The notes under the pieces are model-generated. The model had not been told where the DNA came from. It did no database searches and saw only the letters and a list, made by a program, of their open reading frames with translations. Shown piece after piece: positions 6,607 to 23,362 of a DNA stretch of 25,419 nucleotides. Source of the DNA: Cytophagales bacterium (lineage in GTDB: Bacteria; Bacteroidota; Bacteroidia; Cytophagales; Thermoflexibacteraceae). Location of the stretch: assembly GCA_038209965.1 (NCBI GenBank), contig JBBQXF010000003.1, forward strand, positions 1-25,419, written 5' to 3'. A program made the translations under genes and the position numbers. How positions within the stretch are numbered: the stretch's first letter is position 1; each line of letters opens with the position of its first letter.

Positions 6607-8831
6607 GTGAAGGAAAACTGATCATCGTCTCGAACAGGTTACCTGTAAAACTTGAAGCAACGAACGGTAAAATAAAAATAAGTCAAACCTCCGGCGGTCT
6701 TGTCACGGCCATACAGAGCTATATTGAGTTTAAAGGGACTGAGGAAAGTGGGAAGGCTATTTGGGTCGGCTTTCCCGACTGCAATGAAAATCTCTGGGAA
6801 AGGGGCTTTAGGCAACTGGCTAAAAGTAATTTTGAATACGTACCGGTTTTTTTGCCCGAAGATAAGTACAGCGGATATTACAATGGATTTTCCAACTCCA
6901 CCATCTGGCCTTTATTTCACTATTTCCCCTCGTTTACCGAGTATAATCCCACTGATTTTGAGCATTACAAAGAGGCCAACAAATTATTTTGTGAAATTTT
7001 GCAAAGTATTGTAAAACCGGGAGATACTATTTGGATTCACGATTACCATTTGATGTTACTCCCCTGTATGCTTCGGGAAGTAGTTGGCAAAGAGATCGCG
7101 ATTGGCTTCTTTTTGCACATTCCTTTTCCATCATTTGAGGTCTATCGTCTCTTACCCTCAACGTGGCGTGAAACACTGTTGAAGGGGTTGATGGCTTCGG
7201 ATCTGATTGGCTTTCACACCAAAGATTATGCAACCTATTTCTCCAATTCGGTTCGAAGAATACTAGGGCTTTCGGTTGACAATACTATCATTAAAAAAGA
7301 AAATCAGATTACAAAGGCGGATTATTATCCCATTAGCATAGACTTTAATAAGTTTAATAAAGGATTTTCAAAAAAGGGCGTAGTAAGCCTGCGACGGGAA
7401 ATGAAGATAGGTTTTGGCGACCGGAAAATCATTTTCTCTGTCGACCGGCTGGACTACACCAAGGGCATTTCAAACCGGCTCCAGGCATTCCGCTTATTTC
7501 TTGAGCAAAACCCGGACTATCGTGAAAAGGTAGTTTTTATTCTCAACATTGTGCCTTCAAGAGATGTCATTTTCAAGTATTCAGAGCGGAAGAAAATGAT
7601 TGATGAGTATGTGGGCACATTGAACAGCGACTTTGGAAACATCAAGTGGCAACCAATTATCTACCAATATCGCAGCCTGGATTTCAATAATCTGCTTGCT
7701 TTTTATACCGTGTGCGACTTGGCGCTCATCACTCCCGTAAGAGATGGAATGAATCTGGTGGCAAAAGAATTTGTGGCAAGCAGGTATGATGAAAGTGGCG
7801 TATTGGTATTGAGCGAAATGGCTGGCTCAGCAATAGAACTGAATGAGGCCCTGCTCATCAATCCGATGGATGTGGAATACTCGGCCAGCCAGATCAAAGC
7901 CGGGCTGGAAATGCCGGCAGCCGAACAAAAAGAGCGGATGCAAGCCATGCGTGACAAAATCAGAGAGTACGATGTAGTAAAATGGGCCTCCGATTTTCTT
8001 GGTGATCTGTTTTTGGTGAAGAAAAAGCAAGAGGCTTTCCAGACCAAAAATATGACCCCGGCTTTAAAATCTACCCTGATGAAAGATTTTGAATTGAGCC
8101 AATCGCGACTTATTTTGCTCGATTATGACGGCACATTGGTCCCTTATTTCAAAGATCCACTTAGCGCTACACCAGGGCCTGAACTGATACAAATTCTGGG
8201 CGATCTTTCTTCTACCCCAAAAAATCATCTCTTTATCATAAGCGGAAGAAAAAGCGGACAACTCGACAGTTGGTTGGGTGCATTGCCGATTAGCATGGTG
8301 GCTGAACACGGGGCAAAAATAAAAATGGCTGATGCCAAAACTTGGACCTCCCAACCTGTGCTGGATGAAGGTGTCCGCCTGACAGCTTGGAAAATCATGG
8401 AAAAAACGACGTCCCGTTGTCCAGCTTCGACTATTGAAGAAAAGGAATACTCTCTGGTGTGGCATTACCGGAGTTCATCGCCCGAATTGGGTCGCATTCG
8501 GGCGTCGGAGTTGATGATTGATCTCAATGAAATGTTTGTAAACTCTCCTTACCGGGCATTTCCGGGTAGTAAAATCATAGAGTTCAAAAGTATCGATATA
8601 CACAAGGGCAAGATTGTAAAAGACCTGATTTCACAAAATCAATATGATTTTATTCTTTGCATTGGCGATGACAAAACAGACGAAGATATGTTCATTTCTC
8701 TAGCCGAAACAAAGGCTTGGACCATAAAAGTGGGGAACGATTTTTCATTTTCTAGGTACAACATTCCAGTTTCAAATGATGTGATCAGCCTGCTGGATGC
8801 CCTTTCAGGTACGATGAAGCAGACTTCTTAA
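6603..8831 (+). CDS. otsA: Bifunctional trehalose-6-phosphate synthase (GT20, OtsA) / trehalose-6-phosphate phosphatase (HAD, OtsB) fusion
   Basis: 742 aa. The N-terminal OtsA start is KLIIVSNRLPV, with a GT20 body. The C-terminal about 250 aa carries the trehalose-phosphatase HAD motif LILLDYDGTLVP and GDDKTDEDMF. The start ATG overlaps the GH15 stop (ATGA, 6603-6606). Confidence 0.9.
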   Translation: MSEGKLIIVSNRLPVKLEATNGKIKISQTSGGLVTAIQSYIEFKGTEESGKAIWVGFPDCNENLWERGFRQLAKSNFEYVPVFLPEDKYSGYYNGFSNSTIWPLFHYFPSFTEYNPTDFEHYKEANKLFCEILQSIVKPGDTIWIHDYHLMLLPCMLREVVGKEIAIGFFLHIPFPSFEVYRLLPSTWRETLLKGLMASDLIGFHTKDYATYFSNSVRRILGLSVDNTIIKKENQITKADYYPISIDFNKFNKGFSKKGVVSLRREMKIGFGDRKIIFSVDRLDYTKGISNRLQAFRLFLEQNPDYREKVVFILNIVPSRDVIFKYSERKKMIDEYVGTLNSDFGNIKWQPIIYQYRSLDFNNLLAFYTVCDLALITPVRDGMNLVAKEFVASRYDESGVLVLSEMAGSAIELNEALLINPMDVEYSASQIKAGLEMPAAEQKERMQAMRDKIREYDVVKWASDFLGDLFLVKKKQEAFQTKNMTPALKSTLMKDFELSQSRLILLDYDGTLVPYFKDPLSATPGPELIQILGDLSSTPKNHLFIISGRKSGQLDSWLGALPISMVAEHGAKIKMADAKTWTSQPVLDEGVRLTAWKIMEKTTSRCPASTIEEKEYSLVWHYRSSSPELGRIRASELMIDLNEMFVNSPYRAFPGSKIIEFKSIDIHKGKIVKDLISQNQYDFILCIGDDKTDEDMFISLAETKAWTIKVGNDFSFSRYNIPVSNDVISLLDALSGTMKQTS

Positions 8832-9956
8832 AATAAGGGGAACCTTTATGGGGCATTATAGCGATGAACTACATTGATTGCAGGGTTGGAAGAGTGCTTC
8901 CAAGCAATGATTTCCGACCGAATGGAAAAAGGGAAGCTGGGCGAGTATGTTACGCAAAAAATACAAAAGGGCATTCTCCTTGTAAACCTATTTTTGAGTA
9001 CACAGAGACCAGTAGTTTGATATGTTTTAAGAGAACCAATACTGAAAAAATGAAAATTGACGGATTAGTCGTTCAGCTTAAACAATTCCTGAGTGTTACA
9101 AATTGAAAAACGCTAAGAAGCTAAAGGTGATCACAGAAGGGATGGAAGAATATCCGTGATAATAATTATTAAAACAATTTGACTTTTGAAGCATTTTTAC
9201 AATGACCAAGTGCGCCAACATAAAAATAAATCATATTGCTATCTGACTATTCATGAGTATGGTTGCTTTATTATCTATGCCCACCTTCCTCCTTTTTTTG
9301 TGCATAACAATAGAGGATACTTTTGAATCTATATCAGCTCAACCCCGCTTCATGCAACAAATCGAGCTAGAAGAGGGGGATTTGAACGACACCCCTGGCG
9401 TGTTTAAGCCCGCCAACTCCGGCCCGCCGATAACCCTGTGCCAGCGGATGCGCCCTAAAATCGTGGCCTTCTCATTTTCGTCCAAAAACGCACTCCATAC
9501 CAGCCACCAAGCATGTTTGGCCAGATAGTGAGTTTACAAACATTGCCGACACCACTATTCATTATCTGGGTTGTTTTGAGCAAGGGATCGTGGGTGGCAA
9601 TGAATTGAAGGTAGCAGTCTGACATAACTCTGCTGCTACAAAACCGCAAAATGTGGGAATCATGTGATTTATTTCCTTAAACATATAACTCATTTAGCAG
9701 ATCTTAGACTGACCTTTGCAGACTTGAAAACAAGTTGTTAGTATCTACAATAGACAAAAAAGACAGATAACAAGAACTATTGCTGACATAAATGCCAAAA
9801 TGCTTGGCGCAGAAGTTATTGCCACTGACTTTGTAAAAACCCTGAAATCACGGACAAACATAGGGAACGATGCCTTTTGAATACCTTTTTAATGAATAAT
9901 TAATTTTAGCTATTCACCCATTTTGTAGGCGATCAACCATTTGATCAATTAAAACC

Positions 9957-10169
9957 ATGAGGACTGTGAACGAATGGAACGAAAAAATCATGGCTATTAC
10001 CATGAAAATACAAAAGCAAAGCCCCGAGCTGATGAAGTTTTTGGGAGAAATGCCTGTCACAATTCCTGACGAGAAAAAGCCAGAAATTAGTGTAGCGGCT
10101 CTGAAAGGTTACTACGAATCGCTGAAAGACTTACTAAAGAAATACCAGTTGGAACAATCAACACGCTAA
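9957..10169 (+). CDS. Small hypothetical protein (70 aa), hydrophilic, immediately upstream of the ABC exporter genes
   Basis: ORF MRTVNEWNEKIMAITMKIQKQSPELMKFLGEMPV... ends 16 bp before the ABC ATPase start. I recognise no family and no double-glycine leader. It is retained mainly because of position and orientation. Confidence 0.35.
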   Translation: MRTVNEWNEKIMAITMKIQKQSPELMKFLGEMPVTIPDEKKPEISVAALKGYYESLKDLLKKYQLEQSTR

Positions 10170-10185
10170 AATTTATTATAAGAAC

Positions 10186-10896
10186 ATGGCCAACAAAATT
10201 GTAGCGCAAGTAATAGAAGCCGGGAAAACCTATAAAACCGGGGATACAGAGATTACTGCGTTACAGGCGTCGTCAATGGACATAAAATCGGGCGAATTGA
10301 CCCTCATTATTGGCCCATCAGGTTCGGGAAAAACGACACTTTTATCGCTCTTGGGCTGCGTCATTTATCCTTCTTTTGGTGAAGTGCTGATTGACGACGT
10401 TAAAGTAACCGGTTTGAGCGAAAAGGAATTGTCGATAATTCGATTGGGTAAAATCGGCTTTGTTTTTCAAACTTTCAACCTGATCGCCCCCCTGAACGCC
10501 CTTGAGAACGTAATGATGCCGATGCAATTGCAAAAAGTACCGCAAGGTGACGCCACCAAAAGAGCGGTCGAAGCATTGAAAAAAGTGGGAATGGGTGAAA
10601 AAACAAAAAGTTTGCCCAAACAACTTAGCGGCGGCGAACAGCAACGGGTAGCCATTGCCAGGGCGTTGGTTTCAAACCCGCAAATGATACTTTGTGACGA
10701 ACCCACGGCTTCGCTAGATGTGAAAAGTGTAGAAGTGGTAATGGAGGAATTAAGAAAATTGGCTTCACAAGGCAAAGCGGTGGTGGTGGTTACCCATGAT
10801 ACCCGGTTAACCCCATTTGCCAACAAAATCGTGTACGTAAACGATGGAATGGTTTCAGGCAAACCCTTTAAAGAAGAAGAATTTAAAGTAAAATAA
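10186..10896 (+). CDS. ABC transporter ATP-binding protein (MacB/LolD/DevA type, no fused TMD)
   Basis: Walker A GPSGSGKTTLL, ABC signature LSGGEQQRVAIARAL, Walker B ILCDEPTASLD, H-loop VVVTHD. 236 aa. Confidence 0.9.
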   Translation: MANKIVAQVIEAGKTYKTGDTEITALQASSMDIKSGELTLIIGPSGSGKTTLLSLLGCVIYPSFGEVLIDDVKVTGLSEKELSIIRLGKIGFVFQTFNLIAPLNALENVMMPMQLQKVPQGDATKRAVEALKKVGMGEKTKSLPKQLSGGEQQRVAIARALVSNPQMILCDEPTASLDVKSVEVVMEELRKLASQGKAVVVVTHDTRLTPFANKIVYVNDGMVSGKPFKEEEFKVK

Positions 10897-10897
10897 C

Positions 10898-11842
10898 ATG
10901 AAAGCAATTCACTATTTTATCATTTTTGGTTCGTTAATAATTAGTTGCGGAACCAAAAAGACCAAAGACAAAGCAGATAATACAATAAGAATTGCCAACG
11001 TAACACATGTCGTTGGTATTGGGAAGATAGAACCCGAAAGCGACATAATACAATTATCAGCCGAGGTGACAGGAATTATTGAAAAAATATATTTAAAAGA
11101 AAATGACACTGTTAAAAAAGGTGAAACTATTTTGGCATTGAAACATGGCATAGAAGCCGCTAATATTGCTGAAATAAAAAGTCAGCTCGCGACACAATCA
11201 GCACAAATAATCGCCAATGAAAGCAGCATAGAACTGGCTAAGATTAAATACGAAAATGCGAATAGCGAACTACTAAAATTGAGAAAATTGTTTGCAGATG
11301 GGGCTGGAACTCAGCAAGAAGTGGACGATGCCGAAACTGCAACAAAAACGTATTCGGCTGATATTGTGCAGCAAAAAGCATTGGTTGAAGTATCAAGAAG
11401 GAAATTGGCGGAAATAGAAAAGCAAATAATAGTATCAAACGAAAGCTTAAAACAACGGTTCATATCGTCACCTATCGACGGAGTTATTCTTGAACTTAGC
11501 GTTTTGATTGGTGGCGTAGTCAATAGCCAAACACCTTTCGCCCAATTGGCTTCAAATGGAAAAACCATTGCAGTTTGTGAAATAGACGAAATGTTCGCTC
11601 CCAAAATTAAGATAGATCAACGTGCAATCATTCGCAATGCCGGCAATTCAGATACGCTTTCCGTCGGTACCGTTTATTTTGTTTCAACTTTCCTCAAGAA
11701 GAAATCATTGTTTACCGATCAAGCTGGCGAAAAAGAAGACCGAAGGGTGAGAGAAATTAAAATAAGATTGAATAATCCCCCACAATTATTGCTAAATACA
11801 CGGGTTGAATGTATCGTATCGCTTACAGAAAACACTAAATAA
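10898..11842 (+). CDS. HlyD/DevB-family periplasmic adaptor (membrane fusion protein), lipoprotein
   Basis: Lipoprotein signal MKAIHYFIIFGSLIISCG. There is a long coiled-coil segment (AEIKSQLATQSAQIIANESSIELAKIKYENANSELLKLRKLFADGAGTQQEVDDAE) and a C-terminal beta-barrel-like region. Its start is one base after the ATPase stop. Confidence 0.8.
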   Translation: MKAIHYFIIFGSLIISCGTKKTKDKADNTIRIANVTHVVGIGKIEPESDIIQLSAEVTGIIEKIYLKENDTVKKGETILALKHGIEAANIAEIKSQLATQSAQIIANESSIELAKIKYENANSELLKLRKLFADGAGTQQEVDDAETATKTYSADIVQQKALVEVSRRKLAEIEKQIIVSNESLKQRFISSPIDGVILELSVLIGGVVNSQTPFAQLASNGKTIAVCEIDEMFAPKIKIDQRAIIRNAGNSDTLSVGTVYFVSTFLKKKSLFTDQAGEKEDRRVREIKIRLNNPPQLLLNTRVECIVSLTENTK

Positions 11843-11843
11843 G

Positions 11844-12977
11844 ATGTTTGTACTCAAAACTGCCTTAAAATTCATCCGGTTTGACAAAGCAAAAAGTATT
11901 GGCGTAGTAGTTGGTATTATGATTAGCACTTTTTTGATTGGGCAACAGTTAGGTGTTTTTATATTTTTGACAAATGCCATGCGGGCTTTAGTAAGCAATG
12001 TAAAGGCCGATATTTGGGTGGTGGACAACAAAACTAAAGACGTAAACCAATTGGGGAAATTAGACATCAGGGTTTTGCGAGAAGTACAGAGTTTGCCGGG
12101 CATAAAAGCCGCTTTCCCGATTTTGATAAGCGGTGGAGCAACCAATTTTGAAAACGGAACAAGCGGCAGCCTAACACTGATAGGGGTAGACATAGCCCAC
12201 CTCGACATTGTGCTGGATAGTTCCAAAATTATTGCCGGCAAACCCTTTGATTTACAAGCTGATGGTGCAGTAAGTGGTGAACTTTATGACCTAAAAAACT
12301 TGGGCGAAAACATCGATATCGGTACGACTTTTGAAATCAATGGCAAGCGAGCTTTTTTCGCCTTACAAACTAAAGGGTTTCGGGGCTTTGGAAACAGTTT
12401 TTGTGTAACGACCATCGAAAAAGCACGATTTTACGCCAACCAATCGGCCAATAGAATCAGTGCTGTTTTGGTAAAAATCCAACCCGACCAAAATGCGGAT
12501 AGTTTAGTGATAATGATAAACCAGTCAATAAGCGGTATAACCGCTTGGAAATCTAAAGATTTAGCTTATTCAACACTTCTGAAAATACTATCAAGTAGCG
12601 GCATTGCTCTAAGTACGGGCACGCTCATAACTTTTGCCTTGATTGCAGGATTTTTTATTATTGGTCTAACGATGTATTCCTCCGCCCTTGACCGTCTCAA
12701 AGACTATGGAACACTCAAAGCTATCGGGGCAAGCAACGGTTTTATCAGCAAACTGATACTGACCCAGGCAATAATTTTTGCTGTTGTGGGTTTTATCATT
12801 GCTTATTTTCTATTAGAGGGTTTCCGAGCAGGGGTGGCATCTTCAGGCCTGATCTTTAGCTTCTCACCTTTAATATTGGCAAGTATTTTTTCTATTATAA
12901 CGCTTATCTCAGTCGGTGGGGCATCATTTGCGCTCAATAGAATCAGCGGTATTGAACCTGCCTCAGTTTTTAGATAA
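11844..12977 (+). CDS. FtsX-family ABC permease (DevC/MacB-type, single FtsX unit with periplasmic domain)
   Basis: The start was chosen at MFVLKTALKFIRFDK, one base after the adaptor stop. The typical FtsX N-terminus, periplasmic domain and 3 C-terminal TMs (GLTMYSSALDRLKDYGTLKAIGAS...) are present. Confidence 0.8.
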   Translation: MFVLKTALKFIRFDKAKSIGVVVGIMISTFLIGQQLGVFIFLTNAMRALVSNVKADIWVVDNKTKDVNQLGKLDIRVLREVQSLPGIKAAFPILISGGATNFENGTSGSLTLIGVDIAHLDIVLDSSKIIAGKPFDLQADGAVSGELYDLKNLGENIDIGTTFEINGKRAFFALQTKGFRGFGNSFCVTTIEKARFYANQSANRISAVLVKIQPDQNADSLVIMINQSISGITAWKSKDLAYSTLLKILSSSGIALSTGTLITFALIAGFFIIGLTMYSSALDRLKDYGTLKAIGASNGFISKLILTQAIIFAVVGFIIAYFLLEGFRAGVASSGLIFSFSPLILASIFSIITLISVGGASFALNRISGIEPASVFR

Positions 12978-12982
12978 TAATC

Positions 12983-14326
12983 ATGAAAAACACAGCATAT
13001 CAAACACTTATTTTAATTTTTGCCCTAACTTTTCAATGTTTGGGGCAACAAAAAATCACGTTATCGCAAGCCATTCAAACGGCGATGAGCAATAGACAAA
13101 ATATTCAAGCGGGGAAAATAAATATTGCTTTGCAGCAACTTCAAACAGAGGCACTATACAAGAAATACTATCCGCAAATATCCCTCGACTATACCTATCA
13201 GTATAATCCAATTTTACAAAGTTCAATCTTACCGGTCGGCAAATTTGATCCGTCCTTGCCTTCCGAGGCTACCGAGAGAGTTCAATTTGGTACGACTTGG
13301 TCGCAGGCAGTTGGGCTTACGATAACGCAGCCCCTAATAGATTTTAGCATAAAAAAATACATTGCCGAAAGTCGTTTGCAAGAAAAAATAGCTGGTGTAA
13401 CCCAAGCCCAAATCGAGTATGAATTGGCTTATGAGGTAGCCACCAGCTACATTAATATTGGGCTTAACCAACAGCAAATTAGTTCAACAGTCTTAGACTC
13501 TGCTCGTACGTGGGTGAGTTATCAACTTCAAAAAGCCAGATTTGATGCTGGCAAACTATTAAAATCTGACCTATACAAAGCACTTATAAACCATAATAAT
13601 GCAAAACAAAAAATCAAAGACGCTATCTCAAAAGTAATTGAAAATAAAGTTTATTTATTATTTTTAATGGGTAACAAAAATGCTAATATGGAAATTGATA
13701 CCATATTTTTCAAGCAAGATTTAACATTTAAAAATAGCTCAATGAGTAGTTTAGATTCTATTCCAGTTTTCCAACAACTCATTTTCCAACAGCAACTTAC
13801 GGCACTTAAAATTCAAACTGAAAACACTAAATACCTACCTACAATTAGTTTAAGGGGCTTTTTGGGGGCAAACCAATTTACCAATAATTTTAATCCTATC
13901 GAAGCTAATTCATGGTTCGCGTACAGTAATATTGGCTTGGTGGTTAAACTGCCTATTTTAAGTGGCGAAGATAGAAACAGCATACGACAACAATTAAAAA
14001 TGCAAGAAAACCAATTAGGTTTACAAGCAAAAGATAAACAAGACCAATTTACGCAAGAAGCCACCATTGCGAATTTGAAAATAAGTAATTTTCAAATTCA
14101 AATGAAAACCCTGAAAGAGAATTTATTCCTTTCACATCAATCTCTACTTATTGTTCAAGAAAGAGTGGAAGCAGGGCAACAGACCGCCTCTTATTTAAAC
14201 AACGAAGAATTAGAACTGCAACGCATCGCCTATGACTACATCAACATTCAAAAACAGACTTGGGTTTATTGGTTGGATTACCTCAAATCATCAGGTATGC
14301 TAAGTCTGCTTTGGCAGAAAAACTAA
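12983..14326 (+). CDS. TolC-family outer-membrane efflux protein
   Basis: Signal peptide, then ITLSQAIQTAMSNRQNIQA (the canonical TolC/OEP opening). The body is a repeated coiled-coil/beta-barrel pattern, 447 aa, starting 5 bp after the permease stop. Confidence 0.8.
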   Translation: MKNTAYQTLILIFALTFQCLGQQKITLSQAIQTAMSNRQNIQAGKINIALQQLQTEALYKKYYPQISLDYTYQYNPILQSSILPVGKFDPSLPSEATERVQFGTTWSQAVGLTITQPLIDFSIKKYIAESRLQEKIAGVTQAQIEYELAYEVATSYINIGLNQQQISSTVLDSARTWVSYQLQKARFDAGKLLKSDLYKALINHNNAKQKIKDAISKVIENKVYLLFLMGNKNANMEIDTIFFKQDLTFKNSSMSSLDSIPVFQQLIFQQQLTALKIQTENTKYLPTISLRGFLGANQFTNNFNPIEANSWFAYSNIGLVVKLPILSGEDRNSIRQQLKMQENQLGLQAKDKQDQFTQEATIANLKISNFQIQMKTLKENLFLSHQSLLIVQERVEAGQQTASYLNNEELELQRIAYDYINIQKQTWVYWLDYLKSSGMLSLLWQKN

Positions 14327-14339
14327 ACTTTTGGCGGAT

Positions 14340-15228
14340 GGAATGGGAGTGATTACAGAGAAAAAAGCCTTTCAACGACCGTTTAACAAAAGTGTTGAGT
14401 ATTTAAGCACCATTTAAAGTGTTTATCTGCTTATCGAAATCGACATGGTTTAACCCATAAAGTATTATCTAATCATAAAACCATAAAGCCATGCCAGCTA
14501 ATGTATATCCCATTAAACACGCGTGTTCGCTGCCGATTAGAAAAATCAATGAGATACTACAAACCAATATGTAAACTAGTTTGGGCGAAAGTGATATTGC
14601 CAACAGGATAAAAATGTAGGGCTTTAATCGATGTAAAGAATAACAGAAAAAAGTATTTTTCAATATTTTTTGACAATTCAAAAGCCCCATTATTATATCA
14701 TTAGTAGGTGCCACCGATTTGAATTTTTCTAAGAAATTACAAGCTCAGCGCTCATTGAAAGCATTTAAAAGCATGAATATGAGTCCTTCAAAATTTTGGC
14801 GCGATAATTACTTGTATGAAGGGCCGTCTAAAAAATTACCCTCAATGATGTTCTAGCGTTGGAGCTCAGTCATGTGGTACAACTTAATGGGCGATTATTG
14901 GAAATTGATCAATTTGAAATGAATGAATCATCGTTGACTGGTGAACCACTGCCAATTATTAAAGAATTAGAAGTTTTAGAAGAAAATGTTAATCTTACTG
15001 AGCAACTCAACATGGTTTTAAAGGCACGTCAGTGATGAAAAAGAATCTGCTAGTTCTTATTATGGGAACAGCCTTGCGCACTGAATTAGGTAAAATTACC
15101 ACTTTGGTAGAAATTGCGGAGAGAGTTGATACGCCACTCGAGAAAGGATTACAAAGTTTAGCTACGAAATTAATGTTGATTACAGCCAGTTTTGCTGCAA
15201 TTTTTATTATTAAAGGTCTGCTATAAGG
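14340..15228 (+). pseudogene. Remnant of a P-type cation-transporting ATPase (N-terminal third only; several frameshifts/stops, C-terminal ~600 codons deleted)
   Basis: Fragments appear in three frames: ...SLKAFKSMNMSPSKFWRDNYLYEGPSKKLPSMMF* (compare ALEALKKL..AKVLRDGK..EIPAKELVPGDIV); ...LEIDQFEMNESSLTGEPLPIIKE (the actuator-domain SALTGES motif); and MMKKNLLVLIMGTALRTELGKITTLVEIAERVDTPLEKGLQSLATKLMLI (compare GTGMNTEIGKIAKL...TPLQKKLD). No phosphorylation-site DKTGT region follows. Confidence 0.7.
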
Positions 15229-15269
15229 CAAGGAAATATGCCTTCTTGTTGAAACCGTTATTGCTATTA

Positions 15270-15310
15270 CCAAAGTCACAATCCTCGAGGCAACGTTGGT
15301 TCACGTTGGC
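15270..15310. other. 15-bp inverted repeat (ATCCTCGAGGCAACG ... CGTTGGCTCGAGGAT, 1 mismatch) with 8-nt loop, followed by T-rich tract; terminator-like hairpin at the truncation point of the ATPase remnant
   Basis: Read directly from the sequence. The inner CAACGTTG is itself palindromic. Confidence 0.4.
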
Positions 15311-15426
15311 TCGAGGATAGTCCGAGTATTTTTGATTCAATTATTTAAGCTAGTTTTAAGATTATTATTGATTACAAATCATAAAAGTAATCATCAAAAC
15401 CACTCATTCATAATAGACTTAGCATT

Positions 15427-15828
15427 ATGCAGTTATCCCAACAAATAGCTTTCCTTTTTCTACTTGCAATCCCTGTTGCCTGTATTGCGTGGACGGTCAC
15501 ACACGAGGAAATATTCAAAGAACCAAGAGATTTTTGTAATAAAAAATCCAAAGAAAGTGAAACCATTGTTCAGCGTAAGTTTTTCTATTTGTTTACTTGT
15601 GAATATTGTTTTAGCCATTATATTGCCCTGTTTTTTTTAATCATCACAAAATATCATTTACTTTATGACGATTGGCGCGGCTATTTGATTTCGGGTTTTG
15701 CCTTAGTTTGGGTCGCCAATGTATATATGAGTCTGTTCGGATTTATTCGCATAGGAATGAAACGGGAAAAAATGGATATAGCAACGGAAGAATCAAAGTT
15801 AAAAATTGAGAAAGAAAACTGTAAATAG
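15427..15828 (+). CDS. Small hypothetical membrane protein (133 aa, 3-4 TM, CxxC pair)
   Basis: Hydrophobic segments FLFLLAIPVACIAW, YIALFFLIITKY, GFALVWVANVYMSLFGF, a CEYC motif and a Lys/Glu-rich tail. I recognise no family. Confidence 0.45.
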   Translation: MQLSQQIAFLFLLAIPVACIAWTVTHEEIFKEPRDFCNKKSKESETIVQRKFFYLFTCEYCFSHYIALFFLIITKYHLLYDDWRGYLISGFALVWVANVYMSLFGFIRIGMKREKMDIATEESKLKIEKENCK

Positions 15829-15829
15829 T

Positions 15830-16378
15830 ATGGCGCAAACGCAAAATAGGCAAAAGTCAAAAACAGTTGCCATCATTGTTGCGCACCCCGACGACGAAAC
15901 GCTGTGGGCTGGCGGTACAATCCTATTCCATCTAGGGCAACCGCACCAAATTTTTTATTTGAAGGGCTGTTTTAAGTACAGGTTATTTTTGTGGGCTTTC
16001 TTTCTTTTTCTTCGCAGGCTCATTTTACCAGGGTCTTTTTTGAGCAAATATAAAGCCCATTTTCGGGTAAACTGGGTTCCCCTTTCATTTCTGCCTGATT
16101 TGAGAAAGGGAAACTCCTGTACTGCAAAACCGGTGGAGGGTATATCTCCTTTGATCTTTATTGGATTGACTTTTTGTATTTCAAGCGGGCATCAAGGTCA
16201 GATTTGCAAGACCATAAACAACAGCACAGGCTTAAAAACAGAGATAAATGTTGAGATAATTTTTCGTGACTACTGGGATTGGGGGTTGAAAATGATATAT
16301 CCCAATGCTGCGCAGCCTTTGGTTGACGACAAAACAACTTTGTCCCACTGCCAAAAGCTGTCATTCCACGTTAAATGA
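15830..16378 (+). pseudogene. PIG-L/LmbE-family N-acetylglucosaminyl deacetylase remnant (only the first ~55 codons are intact)
   Basis: KTVAIIVAHPDDETLWAGGTILFHLGQPHQIFYL is the PIG-L catalytic N-terminus (AHPDDE). The downstream translation is low-complexity noise in every frame, so the gene is disrupted. Confidence 0.55.
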
Positions 16379-16615
16379 TTGTTAAGTTTTTGCGGGGGGC
16401 AGGCACCCACGGCAGATCCCACGGCTGGCGGTAGTGATAGCGGTTATTGATAAATAGGGGTGCGCCCAGTTCCCTGAACTGGGCCAAACAGCGGTAAAAC
16501 ACTCCGCTCGGATTGGCCAACCAGTTTGGCTAATTGGGCGGCATTGCCCCGTCGGCCTTGGAGGATCAGGCCATGCACTACCGATAAACAGTAATAAGTC
16601 GCAAGTTGGACCATT
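16371..16615 (-). mobile_element. Frameshifted N-terminal remnant of an IS630-family-like transposase (HTH region only)
   Basis: The minus-strand translation reads MVQLATYYCLSVVHGLILQGRRGNAAQLAKLVGQSERSVLPLFGPVQ.., then, after a +1 shift, ..QFRELGAPLFINNRYHYRQPWDLPWVPAPRKNL*. The HTH, followed by an R-F-R-E-x-G box and a PxxRxxxP segment, resembles IS630 N-termini. Only about 80 of about 340 codons are present, and there is no DDE domain. Confidence 0.35.
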
Positions 16616-17175
16616 GGTCAAGAACAACAGATGGTTCATGGAAGTCAGACGTTAGATCATCGGTGCAGATTATAACAAATGTAAGGACTCTCTGGCAAAA
16701 AAACAACCCGGCAAAAGTTTTTTTGGTGAATGGTACGGAATTTTTAGCGTTACCCAATGAAATAATAGCCTCGTCGTTCGAGGTAAAGTTGATTTGACCG
16801 TCAATATTTAGCAAAACCGCTGGCGATCCGGGCAGTTTTGGTTTATCTGACCTCGATTGCCAACCCTATCGGCCTATCCTTTGTATTGATAATTAAGCTA
16901 TTTTGGGTAAGTTTAACCATCGGTTCAATTTTGCCAACCTGCTTGCCCCGTTGTTGGGTGATTGGGGAAGTCGGGAAGCTTGATAATAAGTTGTCTTGCA
17001 TTTAAATTATACTGGTGACAACCAATAGAGTTTTCGTTAGAGCAATTACAAACCAGAGCAATTTGTTGACACTGACTGATTTCAATATCAACGGGCGAAA
17101 AGAGTCCAATTCGATACCCAAAAAAGGAGTAAATTTTAATTTGGGATGTTATCATTCACTAATAGATAAACCCCC

Positions 17176-17808
17176 ATGCTCTTCTTTTTTCTTTGCATCT
17201 GCCTGATCAGTGCGATAGGTTCGTTGCAGCCTGGCTTGGTCAATTTGGCCGTCATCCAAACGGTATTGCAGCGGGGCACGTTCCCGGCCGTCTGCCTAGC
17301 CATTGGTGGTTGCCTGCCCGAGATGCTCTACGGTTGGCTCGCCGTTCAGGCCCACGGCGGGATGGGCGGCTGGGCCAGCCAAATTGTCCAGCATCCCGCC
17401 GCCCAATGGATAGCCTTGGGGGTATTGGCGGGTGCGGGGATATACTATTTGTGTCGGCCCGCCGTGGCTTGGGGAGTGGAACAGCGCCCGGCCCGGCCCT
17501 TGGCTGCTTTTGGCAAAGGACTGCTATTGGCTTTGTACAATGCCCAGTTGGTCGTTTTCTGGATATTGGTGTTGGCGTTTGTGCAGGTGCACTGGCCACC
17601 ACCAAACGTAATGACCAGATCAATGTTTCAAATCGCCTTTGCCTTGGGAAGTGGCTTGGGCGCCCTTTTTTTCTTGCTTTCGTTGGTTGCTTTGGTTAAT
17701 CGGTACAATGAAAAGATTAAAACGGCATTTGGCCACCGGGCCAATCAATGGACCGGAATTGTGCTGCTCCTAATTGCCGCTTGGGGAATTTTACAGGCGG
17801 TCATTTGA
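17176..17808 (+). CDS. LysE/RhtB-family amino-acid exporter
   Basis: 210 aa with 6 TM. The N-terminal SLQPGLVNLAVIQTVLQRG matches the LysE PGP(N) motif region. GC is about 62%. Confidence 0.7.
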   Translation: MLFFFLCICLISAIGSLQPGLVNLAVIQTVLQRGTFPAVCLAIGGCLPEMLYGWLAVQAHGGMGGWASQIVQHPAAQWIALGVLAGAGIYYLCRPAVAWGVEQRPARPLAAFGKGLLLALYNAQLVVFWILVLAFVQVHWPPPNVMTRSMFQIAFALGSGLGALFFLLSLVALVNRYNEKIKTAFGHRANQWTGIVLLLIAAWGILQAVI

Positions 17809-17826
17809 ACACCAAAACCCTTACAG

Positions 17827-18507
17827 ATGGAAACCAAATATTGGTACTTGCAAAACCACACATTGTTCGACCAACTGAGCCAGCAAGAAATTGCTGAGTT
17901 GAACATTATTTCTTGCTTCAAAACGGCCAATAAAAGTGAATATGTTTACTTGGGTGGCCGCGATCTAACCCGCCTGTATATCCTCAAAAAAGGCCGGGTA
18001 AAAATTGCTTTCCAGAGCGAATCGGGCGAGGAAGTGGTGATGGAAATCCTCAAAGACGGGGATATTTTTGGGGCCGTGGGCTTGGAAGTGCAACCCAATC
18101 ACCACCAAGAATATGCCCAAGCCCTTACTGATGTGGCACTGTGCAGTTTTACCATCCCCGATTTTGTGAGCGTTATGCAGAAAAATCCCGAATTGGCGAT
18201 TCGCTACAGCAAAAAATTGGGGGAGAAAGTCAATACGGTACAAGGCAAATTTGCCAATATCATCTTCAAGGACTCCCGCGAACGGATTGTCAATTTCTTC
18301 CGGCTCAATGCCTTGCACGAGGGCAATCAGCAAGCCGACGGATCCTATTTGCTCGATATGTACCTTACCCACCAAGACATTGCCCACTTCACGGCCGTAT
18401 CGCGGCAAACCGTCACTACTATTATCAACCAACTCATTGTTCAACAGCTCATTGTTTATGTGGGCCGCCGCAAGGTGGTTATCCCCAACCTAAACAAATT
18501 GGGTTGA
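17827..18507 (+). CDS. Crp/Fnr-family transcriptional regulator (cNMP-binding domain + C-terminal HTH)
   Basis: The beta-roll region is RLYILKKGRVKIAFQSESGEEVVMEILKDGDIFGA. The C-terminal HTH is LTHQDIAHFTAVSRQTVTTIINQL. Confidence 0.85.
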   Translation: METKYWYLQNHTLFDQLSQQEIAELNIISCFKTANKSEYVYLGGRDLTRLYILKKGRVKIAFQSESGEEVVMEILKDGDIFGAVGLEVQPNHHQEYAQALTDVALCSFTIPDFVSVMQKNPELAIRYSKKLGEKVNTVQGKFANIIFKDSRERIVNFFRLNALHEGNQQADGSYLLDMYLTHQDIAHFTAVSRQTVTTIINQLIVQQLIVYVGRRKVVIPNLNKLG

Positions 18508-18517
18508 TGCCCAATGG

Positions 18518-18691
18518 CTATTGACGGCCCTGTTTTTTTTGTTGGCCTGGTGCATGGGACTTGGCCGATTTGGAACCGTAAATTTTCTTGGCCTGCCCCG
18601 GCGGTACGATGGGCCGGGTGCTGAACGGGGGCCGGGTACAGCCAACGGCCAAAAGGAGCAATAGGGCAAAGATTACGTTTTTCCGGTTCAT
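18518..18691 (-). CDS. Small putative lipoprotein (57 aa from the internal Met)
   Basis: MNRKNVIFALLLLLAVGCTRPP... is a signal peptide with a lipobox (LAVGC). The ORF is short and basic, so confidence is low. Confidence 0.3.
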   Translation of the reverse strand: MNRKNVIFALLLLLAVGCTRPPFSTRPIVPPGQAKKIYGSKSAKSHAPGQQKKQGRQ

Positions 18692-18941
18692 GTTATGGGG
18701 ATGATGATACTTGTAACGCAAAAACCGGGCTTGAAGGTTTCAGGATAAATCTATGTGAAAGATAGGGCTCGCCAACGGATGCCGGACACCATTGTAGCAG
18801 TAAAAAAGGGTATCCGAAAAAGCCGAAGCTTCAGTAGATTGCAAGTCACCGGTATTGTTCAGGTCAGTGCAGTTCCAATCATCGACTCACCGCCAATCTG
18901 ATAGCTGGGCAATTTTAATCGACCAATTGGGCAAGGGATCA

Positions 18942-20195
18942 TCACCCCCTCGCCAACACCTTGGAGATATCGATCCGGTAGGCATTGATGGCCGGGATCG
19001 CGGCGGCCACCACCCCGATGAGCGCGCTCAGGCCCAGCCAATAGAGTTCTTGGGGCAAAAACAGCCAGCCGGTCAGTTGGGCTTGCTCGGCTTCTTCGGC
19101 AAAGCGGCCGAGCAGTTCGGTAGCAGTGTGGCCCAGCAATATCCCCAAACTGACCCCAAGTAGGGTGATGACCACCCCCTCGGTGATGACCAACGCCAGC
19201 AGGCCGCCCGGTGAGGATCCAAGGGCGCGCATCACGGCCAGATCGTAGCGACGTTCTTTGAGTGCGTTGTAAAGGGCGATAAAAATGCTTAATACGGCGA
19301 TAAGTACCACCAAATAGCCAAAATACTCCAGCAGGGTAAGGCCGATGCCCAAGATGGAAAACAAGCGGTTGACCTCAAAAGCGGGCGAGGCCGCCTGCAT
19401 ATTGGTCTGGCTGTTGACAAAGCGCGGGAGCGTAATGGCCGCCATGGGGCTGCGGAACTTGATCAGCATAGTGGTCAGCTCTTTTGTGGTGTCGCCCACG
19501 GGCAAGCCAGTGAGTGAATCGGTCAACACCGCGTGTTCGTGCCCACTTTGGGCAGTGAGGTCGGCTGCTTCGCCGTGGCCTTCGTGCACGGCCCACACAC
19601 TTTGGACGTTGGTCAGGATCAGGTTGTCCAGTGCGGTGCCGGTGGGCTTGAGCAGGCCCACCACCGTGTAGGGATGGTCGGCGTGCACATCGCCCACGCC
19701 CGCGCCCATGCCGTGTGCCCCCGCAAAGCTGGCCCCGATTTTAAGCCCGGTTGCTTGGCCGACTTCGGCCCCGATGGTAGCCTCGAGGGTATTGGCCCAC
19801 CAAGCCCCGGTTTGCAGTTCGGCCCCGTAGAGTTCAGGATATTTTCGGTTGGTGCCCACTATACGGAAGCCATTGTAGCTGTCGCCCAGGGCCAGCGGGA
19901 TCACTGACTTCACCATTCGGTTGCGGGCCAACAGGTCGGCTTCGCTCAGTTTGATATTGCCCGTCGGGTAGTCGATATGGAACACACTGGACAGGATCAG
20001 TTGCATCGGGCTGCCCTTGGCCCCCACCACCAGATCGATCCCCTTGGCATTTTTGGTCAATTTTTCTTCTAGTTGGTGACTCACCAACAGCAACAAAATA
20101 ATGACTGCCGTGCCCAGGGCCAGGATCAACATATTGAGGGCATTGCTCAGGGGCTTGGCCTTGATGTATTGAAAACTGAGGGAGAACAAGTTCAT
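18942..20195 (-). CDS. FtsX/MacB-like ABC transporter permease (single FtsX unit with large periplasmic domain); no ATPase gene adjacent
   Basis: The start is at MNLFSLSFQYIKAKPLSNALNMLILALG (a typical FtsX N-terminus). A periplasmic domain of about 250 aa follows, then 3 C-terminal TMs (LTLLEYFGYLVVLIAVLSIFIALYNALKERRYDLAVMRALGSS). Confidence 0.8.
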   Translation of the reverse strand: MNLFSLSFQYIKAKPLSNALNMLILALGTAVIILLLLVSHQLEEKLTKNAKGIDLVVGAKGSPMQLILSSVFHIDYPTGNIKLSEADLLARNRMVKSVIPLALGDSYNGFRIVGTNRKYPELYGAELQTGAWWANTLEATIGAEVGQATGLKIGASFAGAHGMGAGVGDVHADHPYTVVGLLKPTGTALDNLILTNVQSVWAVHEGHGEAADLTAQSGHEHAVLTDSLTGLPVGDTTKELTTMLIKFRSPMAAITLPRFVNSQTNMQAASPAFEVNRLFSILGIGLTLLEYFGYLVVLIAVLSIFIALYNALKERRYDLAVMRALGSSPGGLLALVITEGVVITLLGVSLGILLGHTATELLGRFAEEAEQAQLTGWLFLPQELYWLGLSALIGVVAAAIPAINAYRIDISKVLARG

Positions 20196-20387
20196 TCGCT
20201 GGCCGGGTAAAAGGTGGATGATGATCAGTGGCAAAGATGAGCAGGAAATAGTTGCCGACAAAGCAATTGATAGTTGGGCGGTTGTCTTTTGCTAAATCCC
20301 TAGTCCCGGACTTTGCATGGGTGCGTCGTTCTGGGTAGATCGGGGCTTGCGCAGCCAGCTGTCCTGAACCAATTGGGCAACCACTGC

Positions 20388-20810
20388 TTAAGCTGCCGCT
20401 TTCTTAAAAACTACCAGCTTTTTCATGATGAAATTCCAGATCACCACTGCCCCGATGGTGAGCAACTTGGCCAAGTGCTCATTGATCTGGGCTTCATACA
20501 CAAGCCGGGGCAGCATCAATTCGTTGATCCACAGCCCCACCAAAGATACTACGGTAAAAATAAGGAACTCGAGTTGGCCCGAATGCGCCCCGCTGCCAAA
20601 TACCCAAACCCGGCTTAACCAATAGTTGGCAATGAGTACGATGGTGAACGCAATCCGGTTGGCGACCATCAAATCTACGCCACAATAATCCTTCAGAAAG
20701 AACAAGATGCTCATTTCAACGATCACCGAAGCAACTCCTAGAATAACAAAGCGAAAAAGTTGGGAATAAAAAGGTTTTTCGGTGATCAGTTGCCGGATTT
20801 TGTCAATCAT
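20388..20810 (-). CDS. GtrA-family membrane protein (polysaccharide/lipid-linked sugar translocation)
   Basis: About 140 aa with 4 TM. FVILGVASVIVEMSILFFL...ANRIAFTIVLIANYWLSRVWVF matches the GtrA family pattern. The start was chosen at MIDKIRQ. Confidence 0.65.
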   Translation of the reverse strand: MIDKIRQLITEKPFYSQLFRFVILGVASVIVEMSILFFLKDYCGVDLMVANRIAFTIVLIANYWLSRVWVFGSGAHSGQLEFLIFTVVSLVGLWINELMLPRLVYEAQINEHLAKLLTIGAVVIWNFIMKKLVVFKKAAA

Positions 20811-20964
20811 TAGTGATAAATAAAGATAAAATAGTTGCAAAAATAAGCAGGAAATGTGGTTTGGCCTCGATCTCCATCAATTTTAACAATCATTTATTGT
20901 TTAGCTTTACAGTTGAACTCCTTAAATCTTTACTCATCCATTTAGCAACGCTGCCCTAAATTCA

Positions 20965-22335
20965 ATGCCCGAACTACCCATGCCAGTTCCTGAACCCAAT
21001 GATGAGCCCCAAGAATGGCTCAAAGAATTGGCCACCAAGAGTTGGGAACCAGAATTGATCATTTCTGCGGCTTCCATTTACCTCATCTCCAGCTTGCCCG
21101 AATGGATTGACGGGGTCTATCTGCATTATGAAATCAACTGGGCCCAAAGTGGCTATCTTGAGGCGGCTGCCGGCGTGGGCATAGAACTGTTGGCTTCGCT
21201 GGGCCTCCTGTTCTTCAAATGCGCGGCCTATATGCTAACGGCCGCTTTTGTGGCCCATTTTACGCTCCGAGCGTTTTGGGTGGCCACCATCGGGCTGCTC
21301 TCGGTATTCCCCCAAGACATTGAGTATGATCGGCTGCCCAAGTTGGGCGACCATGCCAAAAAAGCAATGCGGATCCAATTGGGCACTTTTCAATCATTCA
21401 TCGTGCGGCTGGATCGGACATGCAGTACTTTGTTGTCTATTGCGTTCCTGATTGCGTTGTCCATTGCCAATATTTCCATCATTTACTTGGCCATGTTTAT
21501 TTTGCTCTCGTTCGTGCGGCTCGTCGTGCCGATCGGGATCATGGAGGAGTATGAGGTGGTGCTCTATTTTGTCTTTCTGGCCCTTACCCTTTTACCTGCG
21601 GTGTTCATGGGGTTGGGCAACACGAAATGGGCAAAAAAACGACCTGATCTGGAAACCCGGCTCTTTCGCTGGCAGTGGGCAGCTACGGGCATCTTGTTCC
21701 CTTTCACCCGCGACCCCTTCACCCGGCTGGGCTATATGTTCCAATCCAACATTTCCCGCTCGGCCTATAACCGTTACAAGCTATTGATAGGGGTAACTTT
21801 GTCTGTCTTGTTGCTCTTCTTCAAGCTTCAGCACGATGCTGGCAATCGCCTCGACACCCGCACGTATTATGGCACCGATGAGCCGTACCGCGTGTACCCT
21901 GTCCATTACGACAACCTGCGGACCAAGGGAGAGTTGATCCGCACCGCCAGCATCCACACCGATGTGCTCAAGGACAATTACCTCAAGCTGTTCATCGCGT
22001 ATCCCAAAATGCTCGATGCGGTGCTCCGTTCCCGCTGGCCCGAACCGATATTGCCCGATAACATGCCCCGGGAGCAGGCGCGGGCGAAACGCAATGAAGC
22101 CAATCTGGCCGGCTTTTCGGCCTATTTTAAGATCTATGTCAACGATTCGCTCCGTACCGATCCCGGCTTTTTGTGGCATACCCACCCCAATGCCAACGAG
22201 CGCGGGGTGCTGGCCTATTTGAGCGCGAAGGGCTTTCGGCTCGGCCCCAACCAGTTGCGTGTCACTGCTCCGCGCACCGACTCGGTGGGCAAAGAGCAAA
22301 GGGTGACTGTGATCCCGTTTTGGTACATGCCCTAA
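20965..22335 (+). CDS. Hypothetical polytopic membrane protein (456 aa) with ~190-aa soluble C-terminal domain; no recognisable family
   Basis: The ORF is clean in a 58% GC region with several TM helices (LIISAASIYLISSL, LLASLGLLFFKCAAYMLTAAFVAHF, LLSIAFLIALSIANISIIYLAMFILLSF, VVLYFVFLALTLLPAVFMGL). The C-terminal domain is rich in R/Y/P/W. Confidence 0.6.
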   Translation: MPELPMPVPEPNDEPQEWLKELATKSWEPELIISAASIYLISSLPEWIDGVYLHYEINWAQSGYLEAAAGVGIELLASLGLLFFKCAAYMLTAAFVAHFTLRAFWVATIGLLSVFPQDIEYDRLPKLGDHAKKAMRIQLGTFQSFIVRLDRTCSTLLSIAFLIALSIANISIIYLAMFILLSFVRLVVPIGIMEEYEVVLYFVFLALTLLPAVFMGLGNTKWAKKRPDLETRLFRWQWAATGILFPFTRDPFTRLGYMFQSNISRSAYNRYKLLIGVTLSVLLLFFKLQHDAGNRLDTRTYYGTDEPYRVYPVHYDNLRTKGELIRTASIHTDVLKDNYLKLFIAYPKMLDAVLRSRWPEPILPDNMPREQARAKRNEANLAGFSAYFKIYVNDSLRTDPGFLWHTHPNANERGVLAYLSAKGFRLGPNQLRVTAPRTDSVGKEQRVTVIPFWYMP

Positions 22336-22363
22336 TAGGTCGGAAGTCGGGAAGCGAGTCTAT

Positions 22364-22386: not shown

Positions 22387-22412
22387 GCGGTTTGGTTTGG
22401 CCAAAAAGGATC

Positions 22413-23349: not shown

Positions 23350-23362
23350 CAGGATCGTTGGG

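What the first reader, a model, noticed from the sequence alone, without database searches (positions are those of the whole stretch)
14340..16380. Cluster of gene remnants: P-type ATPase, membrane ORF, LmbE-like deacetylase
Two kilobases between the exporter and the GC-rich block contain no intact recognisable gene except a small membrane ORF. A P-type ATPase is reduced to its first ~300 codons with at least two frame breaks (SLTGEP and GKITTL...TPLEK motifs in different frames). A PIG-L/LmbE deacetylase retains only its AHPDDE N-terminus. Concentrated decay like this usually marks the edge of an acquired element or a region under relaxed selection.
Basis: seen in the sequence. Interest (0 to 1): 0.5.

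Follow-up and report, generated by a model that had tools for sequence, protein, structure and literature searches.

The report
Decayed three-gene operon at strain-variable junction
This stretch of an uncultured Bacteroidota genome holds a dead ion-pump gene, a 34-codon stub of a deacetylase gene and a frameshifted regulator-like gene around one small, still-conserved membrane-protein gene, which is ordinary gene decay at a spot where related strains differ in structure.

Summary
Window 14491-15405 is a pseudogene of a P2-type cation ATPase. It has five in-frame stops, two frameshifts, a 23-codon deletion and an internal deletion of about 565 codons that removes the catalytic core. The last ~24 codons survive, so it is gutted rather than 3'-truncated.

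The 133-aa ORF at 15427-15828 is intact and keeps every invariant residue of a very large uncharacterised Bacteroidota family. Only codons ~1-34 of a PIG-L/LmbE gene remain (15830-15931). The 190-aa ORF there is accidental read-through.

A winged-HTH-like ORF on the minus strand (16614 to 15956) is frameshifted here but open in a sister strain.

Three other metagenome assemblies carry the same ATPase lesions, so these are not assembly errors. Between strains the dead stretches diverge at 2.4%, equal to the synonymous rate of neighbouring genes.

The cluster sits on a sharp codon-composition step (GC3 0.34 to 0.64). It also holds two strain-variable breakpoints: 15931, and 16071 where sister strains carry an ISAs1 element. 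No integrase, tRNA or repeats define an island.

Verdict: real, well explained, ordinary. Low interest.

The parts
14491..15292 (+). 5' part of a P2-type cation ATPase pseudogene, equivalent to codons 1-292 of the intact 880-aa homologue. ATG kept. In-frame stops at 14572, 14617, 14641, 14671, 15224. Frameshifts near 14832-14838 and 15012-15026. 23-codon deletion near 14730. TGES motif degraded to TGEP and PEGL to ILEA.
   Evidence: Pfam hits in three frames; tblastn against the L003 ATPase; stop coordinates; identical lesions in L002, L093 and L094.
15278..15321 (.). Inverted duplication (19-nt arms, 6-nt loop) lying exactly at the junction of the ~565-codon internal deletion. Probably a footprint of the deletion event rather than a functional hairpin.
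   Evidence: the repeat finder pair I2. Folding energy -26.5 kcal/mol, z -4.6. Three stem positions differ in L002/L093 without compensation.
15296..15405 (+). Surviving 3' tail of the ATPase gene (last ~24 codons, LIQLFK...; stop codon lost) plus the former ATPase/small-ORF spacer.
   Evidence: blastn window 15335-15863 against L003 5945-6458, 72.7%; local alignments; weak protein match aa 856-879.
15427..15828 (+). Intact 133-aa membrane-protein gene. The model is all-helical, read as about three hydrophobic helices. Member of a very large uncharacterised Bacteroidota family with an invariant TCEYCFSHY motif.
   Evidence: 8000 or more homologues, the listed ones 71-99% identical, with no Pfam domain on record. 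All invariant columns kept. 0-1 nonsynonymous against 2-3 synonymous differences to sister strains.
15830..15931 (+). 5' stub (about 34 codons, including AHPDDE) of a PIG-L/LmbE-family deacetylase gene. Its ATG lies 1 nt after the small ORF's stop. The apparent 190-aa ORF (15806-16378) is read-through into unrelated DNA.
   Evidence: PIG-L profile 2-28 only. 81% identity to aa 11-36 of the L018 PIG-L protein and nothing else. L002, L093 and L094 have 2 extra T at 15950, which end the ORF at 44-52 aa.
15932..16071 (.). 140-nt segment shared by all strain types and bounded by two strain-variable breakpoints (15931 and 16071). It contains the 3' end of the minus-strand ORF and diverges 6-8% between strain types.
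   Evidence: Seven-sequence alignment; blastn results; divergence counts.
15956..16614 (-). Frameshifted remnant of a winged-HTH-like gene. In sister contig L095 the same DNA reads as a 77-aa ORF, one in-frame stop, then a 136-aa ORF. The window differs from L095 by 12-nt, 2-nt and 1-nt indels that break both ORFs.
   Evidence: ORFs in L095; indels at 16190, 16406-16417, 16447, 16454 and 16496. HTH_29 E 1e-3 and HTH_11 E 6e-3, both below the Pfam cut-offs, so the family assignment is tentative.
16615..17175 (.). Unassigned DNA upstream of the LysE-type gene. No recognisable gene or RNA. Divergence to L095 is near the synonymous rate.
   Evidence: No Pfam, Rfam, tRNA or homologue hits. 12/555 substitutions against pS 0.0185 for the right-hand genes.

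Best explanation
An operon of three tightly spaced genes once lay downstream of the MacAB-TolC-type exporter: a P2-type cation ATPase, a small conserved membrane protein and a PIG-L/LmbE deacetylase.

In this lineage the ATPase was inactivated. It then accumulated nonsense mutations and frameshifts (one at a homopolymer run), a small deletion, and one large internal deletion that removed the phosphorylation, nucleotide-binding and TM5-10 regions. The LmbE gene lost everything after about codon 34 through a deletion or rearrangement whose junction is at 15931. A convergent winged-HTH-like gene on the other strand was frameshifted.

Only the middle gene remains under purifying selection, and it is presumably transcribed on its own. 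All of this happened before the sampled strains split, because they share the ATPase and LmbE lesions. Since then the dead DNA has drifted at the neutral rate.

The site is structurally unstable. Sister strains carry an ISAs1 element at 16071, another has a different left flank at 15931, and the site coincides with a sharp codon-composition boundary.

Shown: the lesions, their reproducibility, the neutral rate, the breakpoints and the composition step. Inferred: the ancestral operon, the order of events, and independent transcription of the small ORF.
For: - Lesion map against intact homologues.
- In L003 and L004 the intact 880-aa ATPase ends 18 nt before the small ORF's homologue. In the window the LmbE ATG lies 1 nt after the small ORF's stop.
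- The same ATPase lesions occur in three other assemblies from other samples.
- Divergence of the dead stretches is 2.42%, against pS 2.45% and pN 0.34% in intact neighbours.
- The small ORF keeps all family-invariant residues.
- An ISAs1 transposase follows 16071 in L002 and L093.
- L095 has a different flank left of 15931 and open minus-strand ORFs where the window has indels.
- L008 carries the window's own junction and alleles across 16037-16071.
- One 89,419-nt NCBI contig is recorded for members of the 90%-identity protein clusters of genes from both sides of the junction, including the exact LysE sequence and the window's exact small-ORF protein.
- GC3 step across the stretch.
Against: - No relative with an intact ATPase-small ORF-LmbE trio in this order was found. 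In L018 all three genes lie in one 12-kb stretch but in a different order. The ancestral operon is therefore inferred from spacing and from L003 alone.
- The small ORF's family is usually not next to an ATPase: 3 of 84 loci.
- Local divergence also varies for reasons other than selection. The stretch 8832-10896 is unusually similar between strains, including at synonymous sites of the ABC gene. The rate argument therefore rests partly on the low-divergence small ORF sitting between the two dead stretches.
- The HTH assignment is below the Pfam cut-offs.
Confidence: 0.85

Rival explanations
1. The frame breaks are sequencing or assembly errors and the genes are really intact.
For: The window is evidently from a metagenome-assembled contig. 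One frameshift lies at an A-run (14823-14829) and the LmbE ORF length depends on a T-run at 15950. Both run lengths vary between assemblies.
Against: Five in-frame stop codons, a 23-codon deletion, a ~565-codon deletion and the loss of ~180 LmbE codons cannot be homopolymer errors. The same lesions occur in L002 (ENA), L093 and L094 (JGI), which come from other samples and other assemblers.
Confidence: 0.02
2. The window is a chimeric join of two organisms, AT-rich on the left and GC-rich on the right, so the 'decay' zone is partly an assembly seam.
For: GC3 jumps from 0.34 to 0.64 across the zone. Several contigs from other samples end near here: L002 and L093 at an IS, L008 at 16037, L096 at 16051.
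Against: L008 spans 16037-16071 with the window's own alleles and continues into the right block. L095 spans 15932 onwards across 16071. One 89.4-kb NCBI contig is on record for members of the protein clusters of genes from both sides. The ATPase and LmbE lesions lie wholly in the left part and do not depend on the seam.
Confidence: 0.05
3. The GC-rich right block is a horizontally acquired island whose insertion split the LmbE gene. The decay marks its left edge. This is compatible with the best explanation and adds a cause.
For: LmbE homology stops abruptly at 15931, exactly where L095's flank diverges. There is a sharp composition step, IS activity at 16071 in sister strains, and a possible transposase-type wHTH remnant (HTH_29, E 1e-3).
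Against: No integrase, recombinase, tRNA or flanking direct repeats in the window. No 3' half of LmbE in the window or in the 2.4 kb beyond its end that L008 and L095 cover. L095's alternative flank ends in an ordinary terminator hairpin, not an IS end. The ATPase decay lies 0.6-1.4 kb from that edge and needs separate events.
Confidence: 0.2
4. The ATPase remnant is kept because it now serves the small ORF, as promoter, leader or terminator, or encodes a functional mini-protein.
For: A strong hairpin (-26.5 kcal/mol, z -4.6) followed by a Bacteroidetes-type -7 motif, TATTTTTG at 15327-15334, lies 93 nt upstream of the small ORF.
Against: The remnant diverges at the synonymous rate. Three stem positions of the hairpin differ in L002/L093 without compensation. 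The -7 motif is frequent by chance: 38 found, 26 expected. The longest stop-free stretches of the remnant in the ATPase reading frames (about 67-75 codons) lack the catalytic motifs.
Confidence: 0.05

Closest known systems
Bacterial pseudogene decay by deletional bias (from my own knowledge: Mira, Ochman & Moran 2001; Kuo & Ochman 2010)
   Same: Inactivated genes gather nonsense mutations, homopolymer frameshifts and, above all, deletions. They drift at the neutral rate and cluster near IS elements and strain-variable junctions. All of this is seen here.
   Different: Nothing essential differs. The only notable point is that the middle gene of the apparent operon is spared and still constrained.
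P2-type (PMR1/SERCA-like) cation-transporting P-type ATPases
   Same: The intact homologues in L003 and L018 score best against TIGR01522 (PMR1-type, 579-605 bits) and TIGR01116 (SERCA-type). They have the full Cation_ATPase_N, E1-E2, Hydrolase and Cation_ATPase_C architecture. The window copy keeps recognisable N-terminal and actuator-domain sequence.
   Different: The window copy lacks the DKTGT phosphorylation site, the N and P domains and TM5-10, and has degraded TGES and PEGL motifs. The intact homologues themselves score below the equivalog cut-offs (798 and 703 bits), so the ion specificity is not assigned.
PIG-L/LmbE deacetylases (MshB, BshB, LmbE; Pfam PF02585)
   Same: The stub has the N-terminal VAIIVAHPDDE metal-binding motif and is 81% identical over 26 residues to a full PIG-L protein in L018.
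   Different: Only about 34 of ~216 codons remain. The rest of the domain is absent.
ISAs1-family insertion sequences
   Same: Sister contigs L002 and L093 continue from window position 16071 into a transposase matching NF033564 at 133 bits, against a cut-off of 70.
   Different: The element is not in the window itself. The window and L008 have the uninterrupted junction.

Membership tests
P-type ATPase (functional member) | Phosphorylated aspartate motif DKTGT in the P domain | tested here: not met
   Codons ~293-855 of the homologue, which include this motif, have no counterpart in the window.
P-type ATPase (functional member) | Actuator-domain TGES motif and TM4 PEGL motif | tested here: not met
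   TGES reads TGEP and AIPEGLP reads TILEATL in the alignment to the L003 ATPase.
P-type ATPase (descent from the family) | Significant colinear matches to Cation_ATPase_N and E1-E2_ATPase | tested here: met
   E 2.9e-4, 4.7e-5 and 7.2e-8 in three frames. Joint tblastn E 1e-66 to an intact homologue.
PIG-L/LmbE deacetylase | N-terminal AHPDDE metal-binding motif | tested here: met
   VAIIVAHPDDETLWAGG at 15866-15916. PIG-L profile positions 2-28, E 7e-4.
PIG-L/LmbE deacetylase | Complete PIG-L domain (profile ~129 positions, including the downstream metal-binding His) | tested here: not met
   Only aa 11-36 of the L018 PIG-L protein align. There is no other fragment even at E 50.
Pseudogene | Disabling lesions relative to intact homologues, reproducible in independent data | tested here: met
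   Five stops, two frameshifts and two deletions, shared by L002, L093 and L094.
Pseudogene | Evolution at the neutral rate | tested here: met
   2.42% against pS 2.45% (binomial p 1.0). 3.1 times the coding average (Fisher p 5e-6). Caveat: there are only 28 substitutions.
Genomic island / integrated element edge | Composition different from the flank | tested here: met
   GC3 0.31-0.53 on the left against 0.58-0.74 on the right.
Genomic island / integrated element edge | Integrase or recombinase, tRNA target, flanking direct repeats | tested here: not met
   None in the window. The far end lies outside the window.
Winged-HTH regulator or transposase N-terminus (minus strand 16614-16380) | Pfam HTH domain above the gathering cut-off | tested here: inconclusive
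   For the open 77-aa L095 version, HTH_29 scores 19.6 bits (cut-off 28.1) and HTH_11 16.8 bits (cut-off 25). There is no NCBIfam hit for the window's stitched reading.

The most novel reading that the evidence does not exclude
The surviving 133-aa gene belongs to a very large Bacteroidota membrane-protein family. The search returned 8000 or more database hits, and the listed ones are 71-99% identical. The family has an invariant TCEYCFSHY motif, no Pfam model and no stable genomic context. Here it stays under purifying selection while both of its operon partners, a P2 ATPase and an LmbE deacetylase, decayed. It could be an unrecognised stand-alone membrane function, for example in cation or thiol homeostasis, that deserves a family description.
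Probability: 0.3. Interest if true: 0.4.

Novelty: new member of a known kind. Interest (0 to 1): 0.15.

Why it matters
It matters mainly for annotation.
- The ATPase fragments and the 190-aa 'LmbE' ORF should be marked as pseudogenes, not as short proteins.
- The locus gives a clean small example of deletion-driven decay whose neutral rate can be checked against neighbouring genes.
- It flags a strain-variable junction, with an IS insertion and an alternative flank, that breaks metagenome assemblies of this population.
- The one item of wider use is the uncharacterised, highly conserved small membrane-protein family.

Tried and rejected
- My first reading of the minus strand 16380-17170 as a decayed GlxA/AraC (DJ-1 + HTH_18) regulator found no support. 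There were no Pfam hits for whole frames or for pieces, even at E 10, and no homologue among 5.8 billion proteins for the concatenated pieces. I replaced it with a shorter wHTH-like ORF after L095 showed open frames.
- The idea that the small ORF is an obligatory ATPase partner or subunit was rejected. Only L003 and L004 have the ATPase adjacent and L018 has it nearby, out of 84 loci. No neighbour family recurs in more than 5 loci.
- The genome-contig scan with the TolC-like protein found no close relative.
- Plasmid searches with the whole window and with 15930-17175 found nothing.
- Rfam and tRNA scans found nothing.
- A search with the reconstructed ATPase N-terminus returned a single 35% hit, so no closer intact orthologue was obtained.
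- The AlphaFold model of the small protein had pLDDT 62.6 and pTM 0.33, so I ran no fold search.
- Six-frame Pfam of 8829-10188 found nothing.
- The NCBI 89-kb contig could not be retrieved. One look-up repeated.
Full report
**Setting.** The window is compositionally mixed. Genes on the left have GC3 of 0.31-0.53 and genes on the right 0.58-0.74. Upstream of the finding lies a complete MacAB-TolC-type exporter: ABC ATPase 10186-10896, HlyD-type adaptor, FtsX permease, and the outer-membrane factor 12983-14326. Downstream lie a LysE-type gene (17176), a Crp-type regulator and further GC-rich genes. Homologues of the small ORF that carry names are from Flavobacterium, Saprospiraceae, Chitinophagaceae, Pelobium and Taibaiella. 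The source is therefore an uncultured Bacteroidota organism.

**The ATPase.**
- A six-frame Pfam scan of 14327-17175 found Cation_ATPase_N, E1-E2_ATPase 19-65 and E1-E2_ATPase 71-151 in three different + frames, in colinear order.
- A related metagenome locus, L003, has an intact 880-aa ATPase with the full domain set. It ends 18 nt before a 79%-identical homologue of the small ORF.
- That protein aligns to the window as aa 1-140, 139-203 and 201-292 in frames 1, 3 and 2.
- Within those pieces there are five in-frame stops, at 14572, 14617, 14641, 14671 and 15224. There is also a 23-codon gap over the TM1-TM2 region, and TGES and PEGL read TGEP and ILEA.
- Nothing corresponds to aa ~293-855.
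- Homology resumes at the DNA level at 15335 (L003 5945), covering the last codons of the ATPase, the spacer and the small ORF. The tail LIQLFK... is visible in frame at 15296-15370.
- The gene was therefore gutted by an internal deletion of about 1.7 kb, not cut at its 3' end.
- At the junction sits a 19-nt inverted duplication (15278-15296 / 15303-15321). I read it as a footprint of the deletion. Three of its stem positions differ in sister strains without compensation.
- The intact homologues score best against PMR1- and SERCA-type Ca-ATPase models but below the equivalog cut-offs. I therefore call the gene 'P2-type cation ATPase' and make no claim about the ion.

**The small ORF.**
The listed ones are 71-99% identical and none has a Pfam domain on record.
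- In a 30-sequence alignment the window protein keeps every invariant column, including TCEYCFSHY.
- Its context elsewhere varies: after an AI-2E permease, after a DUF1275 protein, or alone.
- Across 84 loci no neighbour family recurs in more than five. An ATPase homologue is nearby in only three: L003, L004 and L018.
- It is therefore an independent gene that in this lineage happened to sit in an operon.
- An AlphaFold model was too weak to use (pLDDT 62.6).

**The LmbE stub.**
- An ATG at 15830, 1 nt after the small ORF's stop, opens MAQTQNRQKSKTVAIIVAHPDDETLWAGGTILFH.
- L018 carries a genuine PIG-L protein of 216 aa (35.5 bits against a cut-off of 28.2, profile 2-127). It aligns to the window only at aa 11-36, at 81% identity. 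No other fragment appears even at very permissive settings, nor in L008 or L095.
- The 190-aa ORF that the ORF list shows is read-through. The other three assemblies have two more T in the run at 15950, and their ORFs end after 44-52 codons.

**Reproducibility.**
- L002 (ENA ERZ27246954) and L093 (JGI 3300007517) match window 5428-16070 at 99.0%. L094 (JGI 3300032431) matches 14479-16023 at 98.2%.
- All carry the same stops and the same deletions. They differ only by point changes and homopolymer lengths.
- Assembly error is therefore excluded, and the lesions predate the split of these strains.

**Selection.**
- For window against L002, the seven intact genes give pS 0.0245 and pN 0.0034. Against L093 they give 0.0239 and 0.0037.
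- The ATPase remnant plus the LmbE-stub stretch have 28 substitutions in 1158 nt, or 2.42%. That equals pS (binomial p 1.0) and is 3.1 times the coding average (Fisher p 5e-6).
- The small ORF between them has 3/402 (p 0.02 against pS), with 0-1 nonsynonymous changes.
- Caveat: local coalescence also varies. The stretch 8832-10896 is unusually similar between strains, even at synonymous sites of the ABC gene.

**The right-hand side and the breakpoints.**
- Homology between the window and L002/L093 stops at 16071. Those contigs continue into an ISAs1-family transposase (NF033564, 133 bits) and end inside it.
- L008 (Logan SRR21228674) matches 16037-25419 at 99.9%. In its first 35 nt it has the window's alleles, not L002's, so the window's junction is real.
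- L095 comes from the same ENA sample as L002. It matches 15932-25419 at 98.8%, but left of 15931 it has 119 nt of unrelated sequence containing a terminator-like hairpin.
- A 140-nt segment (15932-16071) is thus common to all types and is bounded by two strain-variable breakpoints. The left breakpoint is exactly where LmbE homology ends.
- On the minus strand, L095 reads as a 77-aa ORF (HTH_29 E 1e-3, HTH_11 E 6e-3, both below cut-off), one stop, then a 136-aa ORF in the same frame.
- The window differs from L095 by indels at 16190, 16406-16417, 16447, 16454 and 16496, which break both ORFs.
- The stretch 16615-17175 has no recognisable content and diverges at about the synonymous rate.

**Interpretation.** The simplest account is a three-gene operon in which the outer two genes died and were whittled down by deletions. 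It lies next to a convergent regulator-like gene that is also decaying, at a site prone to rearrangement and IS insertion. The site coincides with a codon-composition boundary.
- 'Edge of an acquired element' is plausible but unproven. There is no integrase, tRNA, direct repeat or LmbE 3' half in reach.
- A chimeric contig is unlikely, given L008, L095 and the single 89.4-kb NCBI contig on record for members of the protein clusters of both sides.

**Novelty and interest.** This is a well-documented but ordinary case of pseudogene decay. It is a new instance of a known kind, and its value is mainly for annotation. The only element with wider potential is the uncharacterised, highly conserved small membrane-protein family.

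Noticed in passing
window 15427-15828; loci L003-L092: The 133-aa protein belongs to a very large Bacteroidota family. The search returned 8000 or more hits and the listed ones are 71-99% identical. It has no Pfam model, an invariant TCEYCFSHY motif and no conserved gene neighbourhood. The AlphaFold model was of low confidence (pLDDT 62.6).
   Followed up: partly
window 8832-9956: A 1.1-kb stretch between the trehalose synthase gene and the exporter has no ORF of 100 aa or more and no Pfam, Rfam or tRNA hit. Yet it differs from sister strains by only about 0.5%, far below the synonymous rate (p 8e-8). The adjacent ABC gene also has low pS, so a recent recombination tract is as likely as functional constraint.
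   Followed up: partly
window 9957-10169: A 70-aa ORF just before the ABC gene is 41-46% identical to the N-terminal ~60-68 residues of the 356-364-aa alpha/beta hydrolases that follow the small ORF's homologues in L003 and L018. It could be another truncated gene or a free-standing version of that N-terminal extension.
   Followed up: partly
L002 10647-11322 and L093 10647-10993 (window junction 16071): Sister strains carry an ISAs1-family element inserted in the minus-strand ORF at window position 16071. Both contigs end inside it, which probably explains why assemblies of this population break here.
   Followed up: yes
L095 1-119 (left of window position 15931): A strain 98.8% identical over the right block has a different left flank: a 17-bp-stem terminator-like hairpin followed by a T-rich run, instead of the LmbE stub. 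Only 119 nt are available, so what lies beyond is unknown.
   Followed up: partly
window 15829-17175 boundary; genes 348-15828 against 17176-25408: GC3 is 0.31-0.53 in all genes to the left and 0.58-0.74 in all genes to the right. This is a very sharp step for one chromosome. Which side is foreign, if either, was not determined.
   Followed up: partly
window 15278-15321: A near-perfect 19-nt inverted duplication (-26.5 kcal/mol, z -4.6) lies exactly at the ATPase internal-deletion junction. It is followed by TATTTTTG, which resembles a Bacteroidetes -7 promoter motif, 93 nt before the small ORF.
   Followed up: partly
L003 8984-12423: In L003 a second P-type ATPase (830 aa) and a DUF6496 gene precede an ABC gene whose product is 92% identical to the window's. 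The exporter and ATPase genes are therefore linked in relatives, but in a different order.
   Followed up: no
window 3069-4283 and 20965-22335: Two long ORFs (404 and 456 aa) have no Pfam match at E 0.01. The 456-aa one is conserved in L008 and L095.
   Followed up: no
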